The position numbers were made by a program, and so were the translations under genes. This document shows positions 18,662 to 32,000 of a DNA stretch of 32,000 bases, in pieces. Within the stretch, counting starts at the first letter, position 1. The number at the start of each line of letters is the position of its first letter. This stretch comes from Paenibacillus sp. (GTDB lineage: Bacteria; Bacillota; Bacilli; Paenibacillales; YIM-B00363), in contig NZ_JAPSKE010000016.1 in the NCBI RefSeq assembly GCF_031177825.1, positions 7,774 through 39,773 on the forward strand, given 5' to 3'. Below the pieces are notes generated by a model. That model saw only the letters and a list, made by a program, of their open reading frames with translations. It was not told where the DNA came from and ran no database searches.

Positions 18662-18997
18662 ATGCCGTTAACCGCAGTCGTCTCGGAGGATGAAAGAATG
18701 CAAGTCAAGAGACTGCTGAAGGCCTACCCGTCGATGAAGGCAGCAGTGGACATTAGCGTATGGGATCAGGGAGCCGCGATGGCCGAGTATGCCGGGAAGT
18801 GCAAGGCGATCGAACGCGCGTTGGAGGCTTTGCCCTATGAAGGGAGGGAAATTATAACGAAATGTTTCTTGGAACAGAAGAAGGACAAGTACATCTACGA
18901 ATTCGTGTTGAAAATTCCTAAGAGCACATATGACTTATACAAGTCCAGAGCCATACATACCTTGTCCTCCATCCTGAAAGCGGCAAACATCGTATGA
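18662..18997 (+). CDS. ArpU/RinA-like (sigma-70 region-4-like) phage late-gene transcriptional activator
   Basis: A 111-aa protein whose C-terminal part (LPYEGREIITKCFLEQKKDKYIYEFVLKIPKSTYDLYKSRAIHTLSSIL) resembles region-4 HTH proteins of the ArpU family. RBS GGAGGATAGG lies upstream. GC content is visibly lower than in the flanking DNA. Confidence 0.6.
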   Translation: MPLTAVVSEDERMQVKRLLKAYPSMKAAVDISVWDQGAAMAEYAGKCKAIERALEALPYEGREIITKCFLEQKKDKYIYEFVLKIPKSTYDLYKSRAIHTLSSILKAANIV

Positions 18998-19015
18998 CAT
19001 ATAAGGCAAGAAACC

Positions 19016-19043
19016 GAGCTTCCGCCGAGGAAGCTTTTTTTTG
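19016..19043 (+). terminator. Rho-independent terminator directly after the activator gene
   Basis: Stem AGCTTCC (19017-19023) / GGAAGCT (19029-19035) with loop GCCGA, followed by an 8-T run. Confidence 0.75.
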
Positions 19044-19104
19044 CGCCTGTTTTGGGCTTTTTTTGGGCGAATTTTGGATGGAATTCGTATGAACGCGATA
19101 CCGA

Positions 19105-19134
19105 TTGTAGGCGGACGTCCGCTTACACTAAATA
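19105..19134 (+). promoter_or_regulatory. Candidate late promoter with a palindrome in its spacer
   Basis: TTGTAG (19105-19110), an 18-nt spacer, then TAAATA (19129-19134). The spacer begins with the perfect 12-bp palindrome GCGGACGTCCGC (19111-19122). Confidence 0.3.
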
Positions 19135-19148
19135 GGAACGAACGATCC

Positions 19149-19177
19149 AGCCATCCGGGAGAGCGGGTGGCTTTTCT
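19149..19177 (+). promoter_or_regulatory. Second terminator-like hairpin in the leader of the structural operon
   Basis: A 9-bp stem AGCCATCCG (19149-19157) / CGGGTGGCT (19164-19172) with one G-U pair and loop GGAGAG, followed by TTTCT. It lies just before the RBS GGAGGTGAAAGGAGAGGGG. Confidence 0.35.
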
Positions 19178-29288: not shown

Positions 29289-30010
29289 CGTCCTTGATCC
29301 GCTACCTGCCGGAATATTACCGGGAGAGCCGGCAGATGAACGCGATCCTGGACGCGGCGGCGCCGGACATTCCCGACGTGGAAGGGCGCCTTCTGCACGC
29401 GCTGTTCTTGTCCGAGGCGCCGGAGGAATGGCTCGAGCTGTGGAAGCGGGAGCTGCAGGCGCCGGACCGGGACGCGCTGCTCGCCAAGCTGCGTTCCTCG
29501 GGCACTTTGAATTTAGATACGATTCTGGCGCTCGGCCTAACGGCGACGGAAACGTACCGGCTCAGCCCGGAAGACGGCTACACGTTGTCCGGGGACGATG
29601 CGGTGTTTCCGGACGGAGCGTTCTACGGTCCGCTGATCTCGGCGATTCACGTCGAGCCGGAGCAGGTCGAGGTCGTCCGCAAGCTGATCCAGATCAGCGG
29701 ATTCGCGGGCTTCCGTTATTGGTTGGCCGTCCATGCGAAATCATCCGTTCGGACCCAACCGCCGAAGGCGGGCATGCTGCGGAGCGTCTATCCGGGGATC
29801 GACCGCGAGACGAAGCTGTCCTATGACGAGCTCAGCGGACGCAGCGTCGACACCGCAGGCAGCGTCGCCTTGGTTCGGAGCCACGCGGCCGACGCGGCGA
29901 GAGCGGCGTGGTGGTCCCCGAACCTCTTCTTCACCGACTCGCTTCGCTACACGGACGAGACGGTCCGCACGCAGCAAGCCGCCGCGACCGTCGTACGACA
30001 ACCGATGTAG
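29285..30010 (+). CDS. DUF2313/XkdU-like (gpI-like) baseplate protein
   Basis: A 241-aa protein starting at an ATGA overlap with the baseplate-J stop. The N-terminus (LIRYLPEYYRESRQMNAILDAAAPDI...) is typical of YmfQ/XkdU-type proteins. Confidence 0.7.
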   Translation: MTSLIRYLPEYYRESRQMNAILDAAAPDIPDVEGRLLHALFLSEAPEEWLELWKRELQAPDRDALLAKLRSSGTLNLDTILALGLTATETYRLSPEDGYTLSGDDAVFPDGAFYGPLISAIHVEPEQVEVVRKLIQISGFAGFRYWLAVHAKSSVRTQPPKAGMLRSVYPGIDRETKLSYDELSGRSVDTAGSVALVRSHAADAARAAWWSPNLFFTDSLRYTDETVRTQQAAATVVRQPM

Positions 30011-30092
30011 AAGCAGGAGTAGTAGGAGAAGGGGAAGGAGTAGCAGGAGCAGGAGCAGGAGCAGGAGCAGGAGTAGGAGTAGGAGTAGGAGG
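30011..30092 (+). repeat. Intergenic purine-rich hexanucleotide microsatellite made of Shine-Dalgarno-like AGGAG units
   Basis: A degenerate part (AAGCAGGAGTAGTAGGAGAAGGGGAAGGAGTAG) is followed by a perfect 5x CAGGAG (30044-30073) and 3x TAGGAG (30074-30091). The last AGGAGG sits 8 nt before the ATG at 30101. Confidence 0.9.
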
Positions 30093-30100
30093 TAAAGCAC

Positions 30101-30616
30101 ATGGGAGTCAGCTATACGGCGTCGGTGGCCGGGATGCGCACGTTCCAAGCGCTGCATCTCGTGCGAACGACCGACGTCTGGATCGGCATCGGCAAGTCGA
30201 CGCCGTGGAACGAGGCGGACAGCGCGCCCGAGGTATCCGGTTCGTCGTCCTTGACGGAGCCGATCGGATATAAGAAGGCGGAGAAGGTCCGATTCGTCGT
30301 GCCCGACGCGGAAGGCGACATCGTTCAATTCGAGCAGCGGTGGAGGCTGGTCACCGAGGAAGAGGGACGGCAGAGCCTCGCCCGTTGGGTGTACGTCGCG
30401 GCGTGGATCGCCGGCGACGAGCTGCCCGCCGTCAGCTATCGGCAAAGCGCGATCGTGACGGGGCTGACGCTCGCGCCGGAGACGCCGCCCGGGAAGCTGG
30501 CGGTGCTGGCCGCGGAGGTCGGCGATCACGGGCTGCCCTTGGTCGTGAACTACCGCTCGCCGATTCATCGCGCGGCGGATCAACGGGAGTATCTCGAATT
30601 TATCGTGGAGTTCTGA
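30101..30616 (+). CDS. Tail-associated protein of unknown function (171 aa)
   Basis: A clean ORF with a strong RBS inside the tail operon and plausible protein composition (MGVSYTASVAGMRTFQALHLVRTTDVWIGIGKSTPWNEAD...). I recognise no family motif. Confidence 0.6.
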   Translation: MGVSYTASVAGMRTFQALHLVRTTDVWIGIGKSTPWNEADSAPEVSGSSSLTEPIGYKKAEKVRFVVPDAEGDIVQFEQRWRLVTEEEGRQSLARWVYVAAWIAGDELPAVSYRQSAIVTGLTLAPETPPGKLAVLAAEVGDHGLPLVVNYRSPIHRAADQREYLEFIVEF

Positions 30617-30647
30617 TGGGTTTGTCTAGGAGGAGGAGCGTCTCGCT

Positions 30648-32000
30648 ATGAGTGTGTACAATCGATTCGACCCGGCCGACCGCTGGGTATCGCTGCAGGC
30701 GAGGAGCGGCCGGCGGCTCCAATCGGCCGAGCTGAACGAAATCCAATCGCTCGCGCTGCACCGCGACAAGCGGATGGGCGACGTCATCTTCGGTTCGGGC
30801 CATATTATCGAAGGCGGTCAGGTGTTCGTGTCGCCTCCGCCCGGGAACGAGGCCATCATCTTTCCCGCCTCCGTCTATTTCGACGGCATGATTCACGACA
30901 TCGGGGAGAAGCGTATCCCGATTACCCGGCAAGGCGAAGAAATCATCGGACTGAAGATCGTCTACGAGACGGTGACGCACGAGACGGAGCCCAAGCTGCT
31001 CGATCCGGCGGTCGGCTACGCGAATTTCGGCTCGCCCGGGATGGATCGACGGAAGGCGTCGCCGGAGTGGGTGTTGAACGATCCCGCCGCGACGCCGATG
31101 TACCGGCTCGCGAACGGCGAAGTGGTCACGGCCAAGGTGCCGCCGGAGCTGGAGGGCTTTACGCCCGTACTGGCTCGGCGCACGCACGATACGAGCGGAA
31201 GCTTCCTCGTCTCGGGCATGGACGGCTTCATCGAGCCGGCCGAGGGAGAGTATGTGAATCTAGTCATCGAAGCGGGGAAGGCGTACGTCCTCGGCTACGA
31301 GATCAACCGGCTCGTCCCGACGCGCATACGGCTTCGGAAATCGCTCGACGCCAGAAGCGTATCGGACGAAGTGAAGGTGTATAAGGACGCGGGCTCGGGC
31401 GCCGAACCGGTCTATACGCTGAACAGCAAGCCCGTGAAGGCGATCCGCGAAATTACGGCTCGGGTACAGCTCCAGACCGACGTCACGCGCCAAACCGGGG
31501 CGGCGGATCCGCTCCCCGAAGAGGCCGTCGTCGATATCGTACGGGTGATGTACAAAGACAAAAATTATGTCAAAGGAACGCACTACCAGCTCGTCGACAA
31601 CAGCGTCGATTGGTCGATCGGGAACGACCGGCCCGCCGTCGGGGACACGTACTCGGTCGTCTATCAGTTTATGCGGCAGATGGTCCAAGACGAGGATTAT
31701 CGACTGGACGCCTCCGCGAACGGGGTCGCGTGGCTGAACAAGATGCGCCCGGTGCCCGACTCGCTCTTCAATGTCACCTATGACTACTATTTAGCCCGCA
31801 AGGACGCCTTCTACTTGACCCCCGACGGGCAAATTCGAATCGCGACGGGACAATCGGACGTACATCCGCCGCTGCCGCCCGTTCCGCCGGACATCCTCGA
31901 GCTCGGGGAGCTTCACTTCCCTCCGGCGAGCGCCGAGGTCGCCGTCGTGAACTACAAGCCCAAGCGGCTGACCATGCTGGAGCTGCGTTCGCTGCTCGAT
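30648..32000 (+). CDS. DUF4815-like distal tail / baseplate-periphery protein; 3' end outside the window (absent from the ORF track because no stop is reached)
   Basis: I translated frame 3 by hand from ATG 30648, which follows AGGAGGAGG. It reads MSVYNRFDPADRWVSLQARSGRRLQSAELNEIQSLALHRDKRMGDVIFGSGHIIEGG... and has no stop codon through base 32000 (451 codons). The N-terminal NRFDP....L....R.LQSAELNE.Q pattern is what I recall for DUF4815 proteins. Confidence 0.65.
   Translation, partial: MSVYNRFDPADRWVSLQARSGRRLQSAELNEIQSLALHRDKRMGDVIFGSGHIIEGGQVFVSPPPGNEAIIFPASVYFDGMIHDIGEKRIPITRQGEEIIGLKIVYETVTHETEPKLLDPAVGYANFGSPGMDRRKASPEWVLNDPAATPMYRLANGEVVTAKVPPELEGFTPVLARRTHDTSGSFLVSGMDGFIEPAEGEYVNLVIEAGKAYVLGYEINRLVPTRIRLRKSLDARSVSDEVKVYKDAGSGAEPVYTLNSKPVKAIREITARVQLQTDVTRQTGAADPLPEEAVVDIVRVMYKDKNYVKGTHYQLVDNSVDWSIGNDRPAVGDTYSVVYQFMRQMVQDEDYRLDASANGVAWLNKMRPVPDSLFNVTYDYYLARKDAFYLTPDGQIRIATGQSDVHPPLPPVPPDILELGELHFPPASAEVAVVNYKPKRLTMLELRSLLD

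What the first reader, a model, noticed from the sequence alone, without database searches (positions are those of the whole stretch)
18662..32000. Contractile tail module with its own late activator but no head, packaging or integration genes upstream: R-type tailocin candidate
The cluster starts abruptly after an MFS transporter gene with a low-GC ArpU-like regulator. It then goes directly to a tail-completion-like gene, sheath, tube, chaperone, tape measure, LysM protein, hub, baseplate and distal proteins. In PBSX-type prophages the terminase, portal, protease, capsid and head-tail connector genes sit immediately upstream of the sheath on the same strand. Here that space holds only two small ORFs. 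This is the architecture of headless phage-tail-like bacteriocins such as R-pyocins and diffocins. To my knowledge such particles are poorly characterised in this high-GC Firmicute-type background. The right end of the element, and any lysis cassette or fibre specificity genes, lie outside the window.
Basis: partly seen in the sequence, partly recalled or inferred. Interest (0 to 1): 0.7.

Follow-up and report, generated by a model that had tools for sequence, protein, structure and literature searches.

The report
Headless contractile phage-tail weapon in Paenibacillus
A soil-type Paenibacillus chromosome carries an intact, conserved 18.6-kb gene set for a contractile phage tail with its own switch-on regulator but no head, DNA-packaging, integration or lysis genes, which fits a phage-tail-like bacteriocin (tailocin), a known kind of weapon not yet described in this genus.

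Summary
From 18662 a small regulator gene is followed by one compact operon. It encodes a tail terminator, sheath, tube, a frameshifting chaperone, tape measure, tube initiator, hub, sheath initiator, wedge and fibre proteins.

A zero-mismatch overlapping contig (L001) supplies the missing right end. The operon stops 5.2 kb past the window, after a 924-aa double-propeller protein and a strong terminator, facing a convergent ABC-transporter gene. No head, packaging, integrase, holin or endolysin gene lies in the 18.3 kb upstream or about 2.9 kb downstream.

The same headless layout, regulator directly before the terminator gene, recurs in at least six Paenibacillus species and two Brevibacillus genomes. 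The chromosomal neighbours differ between lineages. All genes are intact, with dN/dS of 0.02-0.46.

An intact Brevibacillus relative has the homologous regulator followed by terminase, portal, capsid and connector genes before the same tail genes, and a holin afterwards.

I read this as a domesticated PBSX-lineage R-type tailocin. It resembles diffocin in lacking its own lysis cassette, and it is related to the partly studied Brevibacillus laterosporus particle. It is a new member of a known kind. The trigger, release route and killing activity are untested.

The parts
18568..18595 (+). Promoter of the regulator gene: TTCACA, 16 nt, TAAAAT, with TG before the -10 hexamer
   Evidence: Consensus scan scores 10 of 12. 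The TTCACA...TGGTAAAAT block is conserved in Paenibacillus species whose upstream neighbour genes differ.
18662..18997 (+). Late activator (111 aa; a possible alternative start at 18698 gives 99 aa). It is a sigma-region-4-like DNA-binding protein, a divergent relative of the ArpU/RinA type
   Evidence: - PHROG_248 'transcriptional activator', E 7.5e-10.
- TIGR01637 ArpU, 32 bits, below the cutoff of 43.1.
- AlphaFold model with pLDDT 86; best PDB fold matches are ECF sigma region 4, target TM-score 0.8-0.86.
- Homologues sit directly upstream of terS in an intact B. dissolubilis element and at the early/late junction of a B. brevis prophage.
- dN/dS 0.046 against P. antri.
19016..19043 (+). 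Intrinsic terminator after the regulator gene, which makes it a separate transcription unit
   Evidence: Scan hit. RNA fold -24.8 kcal/mol, z-score -3.0. The hairpin plus T-run is conserved in relatives.
19044..19202 (+). Late-operon control region: conserved sequence blocks (GGC-N7-AGGC, TACCGA, GCTTACACT) and a leader hairpin at 19149-19172
   Evidence: Alignment of eight Paenibacillus loci. Hairpin fold -17 kcal/mol. A similar hairpin precedes terS in the intact element L018. The promoter role is inferred.
19203..19664 (+). Tail terminator (153 aa; XkdJ / PF20765 family)
   Evidence: PHROG_5756, E 1e-27. 30% identical to PBP180 ORF15, E 2e-21. The profile search returns proteins named 'phage tail terminator family', PF20765 and 'XkdJ'.
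19645..19905 (+). Small conserved protein (86 aa; YqzN/YkzM-like) that always sits just before the sheath gene
   Evidence: PHROG_1939, E 2.6e-18. PF26160 on the orthologues. Also present in intact relatives.
19907..21262 (+). Contractile tail sheath (451 aa)
   Evidence: Four Pfam sheath domains. PDB sequence matches: 3hxl E 1e-113, 3lml E 8e-106, diffocin CD1363 E 6e-20.
21266..21715 (+). Tail tube (149 aa; DUF2001 / XkdM type)
   Evidence: PF09393, E 1.3e-45. dN/dS 0.019.
21729..22360 (+). Tail assembly chaperone XkdN (21729-22187) with a programmed -1 frameshift at A_AAA_AAC (22178-22184), which gives a 210-aa extended product ending at 22360
   Evidence: PF08890, E 8.5e-40. The heptamer plus stop codon is identical in all 14 loci examined, and the -1 frame peptide LIRSGDYHA is conserved through synonymous changes.
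22403..25264 (+). Tape measure protein (953 aa)
   Evidence: Eleven PHROG families, nine of them tape-measure families, best E 8e-21. Hydrophobic central segment. Length varies among relatives: 951-1100 aa.
25254..25907 (+). Tube initiator with a C-terminal LysM peptidoglycan-binding domain (217 aa; XkdP-like)
   Evidence: LysM, E 2.8e-16. Matches the diffocin 'tube tail' protein CD1367 (E 3.6e-17) and a phage gp61 tail tube initiator.
25904..26866 (+). Baseplate hub (320 aa; YqbQ/XkdQ type) with no hydrolase domains
   Evidence: PF24032, E 7.8e-87. Residues 1-208 match residues 1-211 of the 581-aa diffocin hub-hydrolase CD1368, E 1e-11. The C-terminal enzyme part has no counterpart here (PMC11329794).
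26892..27839 (+). Two tandem DUF2577 (XkdR-like) genes, 26892-27338 and 27357-27839, probably central spike components
   Evidence: PF10844, E 2e-14 and 1.5e-13. Duplicated in all Paenibacillus loci, single in Brevibacillus. The spike role is inferred from position.
27863..28264 (+). Sheath initiator (133 aa; gp25/XkdS type)
   Evidence: PF10934, E 3.5e-25.
28266..29288 (+). Baseplate J / triplex (wedge) protein (340 aa; XkdT type)
   Evidence: PF04865, E 4.9e-55. Matches diffocin TRI-2 CD1371, E 3.8e-23.
29285..30010 (+). 241-aa baseplate protein in the XkdU position, probably the second wedge protein
   Evidence: Weak PHROG_521 'tail protein' hit, E 4.6e-5. Conserved in all relatives. No Pfam or PDB sequence match.
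30101..30616 (+). Baseplate wedge / tail-fibre-network component (171 aa)
   Evidence: PF25691 BW3TFN, E 6.8e-47.
30648..32000 (+). DUF4815 fibre-network protein, cut by the window end. The full protein is 689 aa (L001 605-2674). The rest of the operon follows on L001: a 384-aa protein (2687-3841), a 60-aa protein (3870-4052), a 112-aa protein (4055-4393), the 924-aa double-propeller protein (4386-7160) and a terminator hairpin
   Evidence: PF16075, E 1e-129 for the window part and 3e-168 for the full protein. PDB 9euf DUF4815 protein, E 5.6e-92. L001 is identical to the window over 1957 nt.

Best explanation
This is a domesticated, headless derivative of a PBSX/skin-type element. It is an R-type, contractile phage-tail-like bacteriocin locus of about 18.6 kb in a Paenibacillus chromosome close to P. 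antri.

**How it most likely works**
1. A small sigma-region-4-like activator is made from its own sigma-A-type promoter as a monocistronic message. Its position and fold are shown; the signal that turns it on is unknown.
2. The activator switches on a promoter in the 160-nt region behind its terminator. That promoter drives one compact operon of 20 genes, or 21 products counting the frameshifted chaperone. This step is inferred from positional orthology with the activator upstream of terS in intact relatives.
3. The operon builds a complete tail (gene content shown, assembly by analogy):
   - a hub, spike candidates, the sheath initiator, the wedge proteins and the fibre network form the baseplate;
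   - the tape measure sets the length, helped by the chaperone and its -1 frameshift product;
   - tube and sheath polymerise from the LysM-bearing tube initiator;
   - the XkdJ-type terminator caps the tail in place of a head.
4. The terminal 924-aa double beta-propeller protein is the probable specificity determinant. It is the fastest-diverging gene and belongs to a very small family. This role is inferred.
5. The particle binds a related Gram-positive cell, the sheath contracts, the tube punctures the envelope and the cell dies. This is by analogy with diffocin and R-pyocin and is untested.
6. Release needs lysis functions encoded elsewhere, because the locus has no holin or endolysin.
For: **Gene set**
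- The tail gene set is complete and there is nothing else in the locus.

**Boundaries**
- Both ends are resolved. Chromosomal genes lie on the left.
- On the right there is a 21-bp-stem terminator and then convergent ABC-transporter genes.
- tblastn with head, holin and lysin proteins of relatives finds nothing in the 39.3-kb extended sequence.
- There is no holin-like transmembrane ORF in the locus.

**Conservation of the headless layout**
- The same gene order, regulator through the 924-aa protein, occurs in P. antri, P. harenae, P. glycanilyticus (several strains), P. catalpae, and strains BK033 and NEAU-GSW1.
- A regulator-first headless layout, with different distal fibre genes, also occurs in B. 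dissolubilis and B. fluminis.
- Left neighbours differ among the lineages where they were read (window/P. antri, P. glycanilyticus, NEAU-GSW1, B. dissolubilis), and right neighbours differ among the Paenibacillus loci. For P. harenae, P. catalpae, BK033 and B. fluminis the stored sequence reaches only about 60-380 nt before the regulator.

**Selection and residence time**
- All genes are full length.
- dN/dS is 0.02-0.46 against P. antri and 0.05-0.34 against P. harenae. The flanking MFS gene gives 0.20.
- Third-position G+C of the late genes equals that of the host gene.

**Signs of working assembly**
- The -1 slippery site of the chaperone is invariant in 14 loci.

**Origin**
- The intact relative (L018/L009) carries the homologous regulator, then terS, terL, portal, MuF, protease, capsid and three connector genes, then the same terminator-sheath genes, and a holin at the end.

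**Relation to known tailocins**
- Sheath, tube initiator, hub N-terminus and wedge proteins are detectably homologous to diffocin chains.
Against: - No experiment shows particles or killing.
- No holin or endolysin is in the locus. No peptidoglycan hydrolase was recognised in any tail protein, whereas the diffocin hub carries two (PMC11329794).
- No repressor or credible SOS box controls the activator. A one-mismatch Cheo-like box overlaps the -35 hexamer, but such matches occur at chance frequency and the site is not conserved.
- The rest of the genome could not be scanned, so head genes elsewhere are not excluded.
- The neighbour-joining tree has no support values, so it cannot say whether head loss happened once or twice.
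Confidence: 0.75

Rival explanations
1. The locus is a decaying prophage remnant. The tail half of a PBSX-like element was left behind by a deletion, does nothing and is on its way out.
For: There are no head, lysis, integrase or repressor genes. Remnants of PBSX-like elements are common in Bacillales; this is general knowledge (for example, the skin element).
Against: All 20 genes are intact in every species examined. dN/dS is 0.02-0.46, even across species whose synonymous sites are near saturation. The frameshift site, promoter blocks and terminators are conserved. Codon G+C has fully adapted to the host. The deletion is clean at the functional head/tail boundary and keeps the terminator gene.
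Confidence: 0.05
2. The locus is the tail half of a split element. Heads, connectors and lysis genes are encoded at another locus of the same genome, and together the two loci produce PBSX-like particles with heads.
For: The whole genome could not be searched. B. dissolubilis carries both a headless locus and an intact PBSX-like element. The missing lysis function must come from somewhere.
Against: The co-resident intact element in B. dissolubilis has its own full tail set, only about 67% identical, so it does not need this one. The three connector genes that join head to tail are absent here. Among the 80 best of 140 PBSX-type capsid loci in the viral contig collection, none came from the four genome records that hold headless loci; this is weak negative evidence.
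Confidence: 0.08
3. The locus makes a contractile particle with a role other than killing bacteria. Examples are an intracellular or development-linked injection system, a particle released at sporulation mother-cell lysis, or a donor of tails to capsid-only elements.
For: There is no lysis cassette, no recognised cell-wall hydrolase and no SOS control. The hosts form spores. The terminal protein is an unusual double propeller of unknown ligand.
Against: The gene set is that of a PBSX-type phage tail: a tape measure, a LysM tube initiator and a fibre network, all suited to acting on a Gram-positive wall from outside. No ATPase, cargo or toxin gene of the eCIS type is present. The closest studied relatives kill bacteria (PMC9406221, PMC4453579).
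Confidence: 0.1

Closest known systems
Diffocin (R-type bacteriocin of Clostridioides difficile)
   Same: It is a chromosomal contractile-tail cluster of about 20 kb in a Gram-positive host, headless and without its own lysis cassette (PMC4453579). Its sheath, tube initiator, hub N-terminal part and wedge protein are homologous to the proteins here, with E-values of 6e-20, 4e-17, 1e-11 and 4e-23. A collar or terminator caps the tail in place of a head (PMC11329794).
   Different: The relationship is only remote. The diffocin hub carries lytic transglycosylase and endopeptidase domains that the 320-aa hub here lacks. The diffocin collar CD1362 is not detectably similar to the terminator here. 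Diffocin is SOS-inducible, and no conserved SOS box was found here. The receptor-binding proteins are different.
PBSX / PBP180 / skin-type defective prophages of Bacillus
   Same: Gene order and families match from the terminator (XkdJ) through sheath (XkdK), tube (XkdM), chaperone (XkdN), tape measure, LysM protein (XkdP), XkdQ, XkdR, XkdS and XkdT. PBP180 is the closest deposited phage record: sheath 44.5% identical, terminator 30%. A positive regulator sits at the head of the late genes.
   Different: PBSX-type elements keep terminase, portal, scaffold, capsid and connector genes, an xre-type repressor, and a holin and amidase. All of these are absent here. The activator shows no sequence similarity to the PBP180 sigma-like factor.
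Brevibacillus laterosporus phage tail-like bacteriocin (PMC9406221)
   Same: It is a mitomycin-inducible PBSX-like sheath particle with antibacterial activity. That paper lists a B. fluminis sheath at 68% similarity to its own. A B. fluminis headless locus is a relative of this window, with a sheath 64% identical. It is therefore probably the same wider lineage.
   Different: The link is indirect, because the B. laterosporus sequence was not compared here. That region is reported to include holin, amidase, terminase-like and integrase genes, and capsid-like structures were seen by microscopy, so it may not be headless.
R-type pyocins of Pseudomonas aeruginosa
   Same: The concept is the same: a domesticated headless contractile tail, a dedicated activator, and a fibre that sets killing specificity (general knowledge).
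   Different: Pyocins derive from a P2-like tail lineage, work in a Gram-negative host, have a PrtN/PrtR and RecA control circuit and carry their own lysis cassette (general knowledge). No specific homology was tested or expected.

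Membership tests
R-type (contractile) phage tail-like bacteriocin / tailocin | Complete contractile tail gene set: sheath, tube, chaperone, tape measure, baseplate, fibres, terminator | tested here: met
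   Pfam, PHROG and PDB sequence matches for each component.
R-type (contractile) phage tail-like bacteriocin / tailocin | No capsid, portal, terminase, replication or integration genes in or beside the cluster | tested here: met
   The 18.3 kb upstream and about 2.9 kb downstream were annotated. tblastn with head proteins of relatives finds nothing. There is no tRNA gene in the window and no direct repeats at the ends.
R-type (contractile) phage tail-like bacteriocin / tailocin | Maintained by selection as a host function: intact and conserved across strains and species | tested here: met
   The headless order is found in at least six Paenibacillus species and two Brevibacillus genomes. dN/dS is 0.02-0.46.
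R-type (contractile) phage tail-like bacteriocin / tailocin | Own lysis cassette for release (present in pyocins, absent in diffocin, so not strictly defining) | tested here: not met
   No holin or endolysin by Pfam, PHROG, tblastn or hydrophobicity scan. A FlgJ-like glucosaminidase follows the cluster only in the P. glycanilyticus clade.
R-type (contractile) phage tail-like bacteriocin / tailocin | Headless particles are produced and kill related bacteria | not testable with these tools
   Needs induction, electron microscopy and killing assays.
PBSX-type defective prophage | Head and packaging genes upstream of the tail genes | tested here: not met
   Present in PBP180 and in the intact B. 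dissolubilis element. Absent here.
PBSX-type defective prophage | PBSX-type tail gene families in PBSX order | tested here: met
Diffocin | Hub protein fused to peptidoglycan hydrolase domains | tested here: not met
   The hub is 320 aa and matches only residues 1-211 of the 581-aa CD1368.
Extracellular contractile injection systems (Afp/PVC type) | AAA+ ATPase, Afp16-type cap and toxin cargo genes | tested here: not met
   No such domains in any gene of the locus.
ArpU family phage late regulators (TIGR01637) | Score above the family's curated cutoff | tested here: not met
   32 bits against a cutoff of 43.1, with only the C-terminal 62 residues aligned.
ArpU family phage late regulators (TIGR01637) | Small sigma-region-4-like DNA-binding protein encoded just upstream of the packaging/late genes | tested here: met
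   Fold matches to sigma region 4. Homologues lie directly before terS in L018 and at the early/late junction in L044.

The most novel reading that the evidence does not exclude
Headless tail loci of this kind may arise repeatedly from PBSX-like elements, once in Paenibacillus and once in Brevibacillus. They would then persist as 'minimal' weapons that have shed heads, lysis genes and cell-wall hydrolases alike. They would therefore depend in trans on another element or on a host programme for release and wall penetration, for example a co-resident PBSX-like element as in B. dissolubilis, or sporulation mother-cell lysis. The double-propeller protein with a cement-like anchor would be a new class of receptor-binding protein.
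Probability: 0.15. Interest if true: 0.65.

Novelty: new member of a known kind. Interest (0 to 1): 0.45.

Why it matters
Contractile tailocins of Gram-positive bacteria are few. Diffocin is the only one with an atomic structure, and they are sought as programmable narrow-spectrum antibacterials.

This locus and its relatives define a clean, compact lineage of about 18.6 kb with a single activator, spread across Paenibacillus and Brevibacillus. Those genera include plant-growth promoters, biopesticide strains and insect pathogens.

An intact ancestor-like element is available for comparison, in one case in the same genome. The pair shows exactly which genes are lost when a PBSX-like particle becomes a pure tail.

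The lineage also offers a candidate specificity module for retargeting: the 924-aa propeller protein.

The missing lysis and hydrolase functions raise a concrete, testable question about how such particles leave the producer and cross a thick cell wall.

Tried and rejected
- **SOS control.** A search for GAAC-N4-GTTC with one mismatch finds a site overlapping the -35 hexamer (18559-18570) and one in the late leader (19136-19147). There are 22 matches in the window against 15 +/- 3.6 expected, and neither site is conserved in P. glycanilyticus. Not supported.
- **Similarity of the regulator to the PBSX-type sigma-like factor Xpf.** None by BLASTP.
- **Aligning the regulator-to-first-gene spacer of intact and headless Brevibacillus elements to show a shared late promoter.** The sequences are not convincingly alignable apart from a leader hairpin.
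- **Integration signatures.** There is no tRNA gene in the window and no direct repeats at the two ends.
- **Known RNA families** in 17800-19400: none.
- **Sequence match of the terminator to any solved structure,** including the diffocin collar: none, with a single sequence or a profile.
- **Right flank in P. antri** via its 920-aa protein: not on record.
- **Head genes elsewhere in the genomes that carry headless loci.** This was only indirectly testable. The capsid-profile scan of viral contigs listed 80 of 140 loci, none from those genome records, which is inconclusive.
- **The 207-aa ORF from 19041.** It is an over-extension. Homology starts at residue 61, and the ATG at 19203 has a ribosome-binding site.

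Full report
**1. What is in the window**

ORF listing and profile searches confirm a co-directional tail module from 18662 to the window end. In order it encodes:
- a 111-aa regulator;
- a 153-aa protein and an 86-aa protein;
- the sheath, the tube (DUF2001) and an XkdN-type chaperone;
- a 953-aa tape measure;
- a LysM protein and a YqbQ-type hub;
- two DUF2577 proteins;
- a sheath initiator, Baseplate J and a 241-aa protein;
- a BW3TFN protein and the start of a DUF4815 protein.

The E-values, down to 1e-129, put chance out of the question. Gaps between genes are 31 nt or less, or the genes overlap. There are two exceptions: the 215-nt stretch after the chaperone and a 90-nt spacer at 30011-30100.

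Positions 1-18326 carry only ordinary chromosomal genes. These are LuxR/STAND regulators, an NHL/cadherin protein, TauE, TerC, a histidine kinase, TetR, an epimerase, a cupin and an MFS transporter.

**2.

An exact-protein look-up returned a 9.3-kb contig, L001. It overlaps window 30044-32000 with no mismatch in 1957 nt. On L001 the operon continues as follows:
- the rest of DUF4815 (689 aa in full);
- a 384-aa protein, which corresponds to the C-terminal part of phage proteins in which the two are fused;
- a 60-aa protein and a 112-aa protein;
- a 924-aa protein.

A perfect 21-bp-stem hairpin follows (-48 kcal/mol, z-score -7.8). After it comes a convergent ABC-transporter gene with a cyclic-nucleotide-binding domain. 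A second contig, L020, adds another reverse-strand gene.

The element therefore spans about 18.6 kb, from the regulator's promoter near 18568 to extended coordinate 37203.
- tblastn with terminase, portal, scaffold, capsid, connector, holin and lysin proteins from relatives finds nothing in the 39.3-kb extended sequence.
- A hydrophobicity scan finds no holin-like ORF on the coding strand.
- There is no tRNA gene in the window and no flanking direct repeat.

**3. Organism and relatives**

The regulator and the 924-aa protein occur at 100% identity in a 'Paenibacillus sp.' assembly, and at 97% and 88% in P. antri.

A scan of species-representative genomes with the Baseplate J protein found the same gene order, regulator through the 924-aa protein. 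It occurs in P. harenae, P. glycanilyticus, P. catalpae, Paenibacillus sp. BK033 and sp. NEAU-GSW1, and in part of a metagenome-assembled genome. Most proteins are 72-94% identical.

Look-ups that reach 10 kb upstream of the regulator show chromosomal genes in every Paenibacillus case examined:
- P. antri has the same MFS locus as the window.
- Three P. glycanilyticus strains have a Lar/nickel-insertion operon.
- NEAU-GSW1 has GTP cyclohydrolase II and sugar-transporter genes.

The right-hand neighbours also differ. For P. harenae, P. catalpae, BK033 and B. fluminis the stored sequence begins only about 60-380 nt before the regulator, so their left neighbours were not seen.

**4. The intact comparator**

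In Brevibacillus dissolubilis scaffold 10 (L018 plus L009) a homologous 159-aa regulator is followed by terS, terL, portal, a MuF-like protein, a protease/scaffold protein, capsid, YqbF, DUF3199, DUF3599 and an HK97-gp10-like protein. Only then come the terminator homologue, the small protein, the sheath and the rest, ending with fibre genes and a holin. Another Brevibacillus locus, L011, ends with a holin and an M23 lysin.

The viral contig collection records this B. dissolubilis element as a 29.3-kb provirus. That is about the size of PBP180 (28.2 kb), a PBSX-like defective phage with the same order of genes.

The same B. dissolubilis genome also has a headless locus (L043/L010), as does B. 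fluminis (L012). In L043 the 10 kb upstream are chromosomal genes; for L012 only about 380 nt upstream were available.

The same regulator family sits between the replication genes and the late genes of a full B. brevis prophage.

The headless form therefore looks like an intact element from which the block terS to gp10-like, and the lysis block, have been removed. What remains is the activator, a control region and everything needed to build a tail.

A neighbour-joining tree of seven concatenated tail proteins groups the Paenibacillus headless loci together. It places the two Brevibacillus headless loci as sister to the two intact Brevibacillus loci. The tree has no support values, so one or two head-loss events are both possible.

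**5. Evidence of function rather than decay**

All genes are full length in all loci.
- Nei-Gojobori dN/dS against P. antri is 0.02-0.46; for example, tube 0.019, sheath 0.12 and regulator 0.046.
- Against P. harenae it is 0.05-0.34.
- The flanking MFS and LuxR genes give 0.20.

Third-position G+C of the late genes (0.74-0.89, and 0.81-0.89 for all but the terminator gene) is close to that of the host MFS gene (0.82), which indicates long residence.

The chaperone gene ends in A_AAA_AAC followed by a stop codon. A -1 slip gives a 210-aa product ending at 22360. The heptamer is identical in all 14 loci, and the -1 frame peptide is conserved through synonymous changes. A tail assembly chaperone made in two forms by a frameshift is the usual arrangement in tailed phages (established knowledge).

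**6. Regulation**

The regulator gene has its own promoter: TTCACA, 16 nt, TAAAAT, with TG before the -10 hexamer. The promoter is conserved across species with different neighbours. A strong terminator follows the gene.

The protein scores below the ArpU family cutoff. Its confident model (pLDDT 86) matches sigma-70 region 4 of ECF sigma factors, with a target TM-score of 0.8-0.86. At 111 aa it is too short to be a complete sigma factor. I treat it as a late activator of the ArpU/RinA type.

The 160 nt before the first late gene contain conserved blocks and a leader hairpin. That hairpin also occurs before terS in the intact element.

What turns the regulator on is unknown. No repressor gene lies nearby, and no conserved SOS box was found.

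**7. Components compared with solved structures**

- The sheath matches two solved prophage sheath proteins (E 1e-113 and 8e-106) and diffocin CD1363 (E 6e-20).
- The LysM protein is a tube initiator. It matches diffocin CD1367 (E 4e-17) and a phage gp61 tail tube initiator, and it carries an added LysM domain.
- The first 208 residues of the hub match the diffocin hub-hydrolase. The hub lacks that protein's two enzyme domains (PMC11329794).
- Baseplate J matches diffocin TRI-2.
- DUF4815 matches a solved 1152-aa phage protein.
- The 153-aa protein belongs to the XkdJ/PF20765 tail-terminator family.
- No peptidoglycan hydrolase was recognised anywhere in the locus.

**8. The terminal protein**

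The 924-aa protein is the most divergent gene: 40-44% identical where its neighbours are about 75%. A word-indexed search of 5.8 billion proteins returned 15 relatives. An exhaustive profile search of 1.84 billion representatives returned six full-length or near-full-length matches.

Its model (pLDDT 80, pTM 0.79) is all-beta and resembles the tandem propellers of DDB1. This is a generic fold resemblance at about 10% identity, not a sign of shared function.

Its last 60 or so residues are shared with hundreds of other proteins. In those proteins the segment is weakly related to the 'phage cement protein' family PF09956.

Position, divergence and fold make it the likely receptor-binding protein. 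This is an inference.

**9. Comparison with the literature**

Full-text searches found no paper describing a Paenibacillus tailocin.

The closest studied system is the mitomycin-inducible phage-tail-like bacteriocin of Brevibacillus laterosporus. That paper lists a B. fluminis sheath at 68% similarity to its own (PMC9406221).

The diffocin cluster is about 20 kb and SOS-inducible. According to a figure legend, it lacks the lysis cassette found in the related prophage (PMC4453579). A Gram-positive tailocin locus without its own lysis genes therefore has precedent.

**10. Verdict**

The locus is best filed as a new member of a known kind, an R-type tailocin of the PBSX lineage.

Three open points are worth noting: how it is triggered, how it is released, and how it gets through peptidoglycan.

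Noticed in passing
window 30015-30092: The spacer before the BW3TFN gene holds a hexamer microsatellite, (AGCAGG/AGTAGG)n, of about 13 units. It is built from repeated Shine-Dalgarno-like AGGAG. Related species have a single TTAGGAGGAG at this place. It might affect translation of the distal baseplate genes or vary in length between strains.
   Followed up: partly
window 26892-27338 and 27357-27839: The DUF2577 (XkdR-like) gene is tandemly duplicated. Both copies are kept in every Paenibacillus locus, while Brevibacillus loci have one copy. Both copies carry an insertion relative to the Pfam model.
   Followed up: partly
window 22403-25264: The tape measure is only 69% identical to that of P. 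antri, while neighbouring genes are 97-99% identical. Its length varies from 951 to 1100 aa among relatives. This suggests recombination or selection on tail length.
   Followed up: partly
window 19149-19176; L018 10773-10803: A hairpin followed by a short U-run lies immediately before the first late gene. It resembles, in sequence and position, a hairpin before terS in the intact Brevibacillus element. It might be a leader terminator, which would imply antitermination control, or an mRNA-stabilising stem.
   Followed up: partly
L003 18889-19575, L004 18900-19598, L005 18792-19592, L007 18893-19582: In the P. glycanilyticus/catalpae/BK033 clade only, a gene of about 230 aa follows the 924-aa gene on the same strand. 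It encodes a FlgJ-like glucosaminidase with a copper-amine-oxidase-N-like C-terminus. It is a possible release or wall-digesting enzyme that the window's strain lacks.
   Followed up: partly
L018/L009 and L043/L010 (Brevibacillus dissolubilis CHY01): One genome carries both an intact 29-kb PBSX-like element and a headless relative whose tail proteins are about 67% identical.
   Followed up: partly
L001 4386-7160 (the 924-aa protein): The C-terminal 60 or so residues form a module found at the C-termini of hundreds of otherwise unrelated proteins of 127-4573 aa, some with NHL propellers. The module is weakly related to the phage cement protein family PF09956. A short N-terminal segment may belong to the same module.
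   Followed up: partly
window 9722-10243 (and L014 1333-1578): A small ORF has a nitrile-hydratase-alpha-like region of the kind seen in leader peptides of modified-peptide natural products. It lies next to a 315-aa protein of unknown function and a 7TM-receptor histidine kinase.
   Followed up: no
window 18662 versus 18698: The start of the regulator gene is ambiguous. One public annotation starts at the internal Met (99 aa), which has the better-spaced ribosome-binding site. However, the residues upstream of it are conserved in Brevibacillus homologues.
   Followed up: partly
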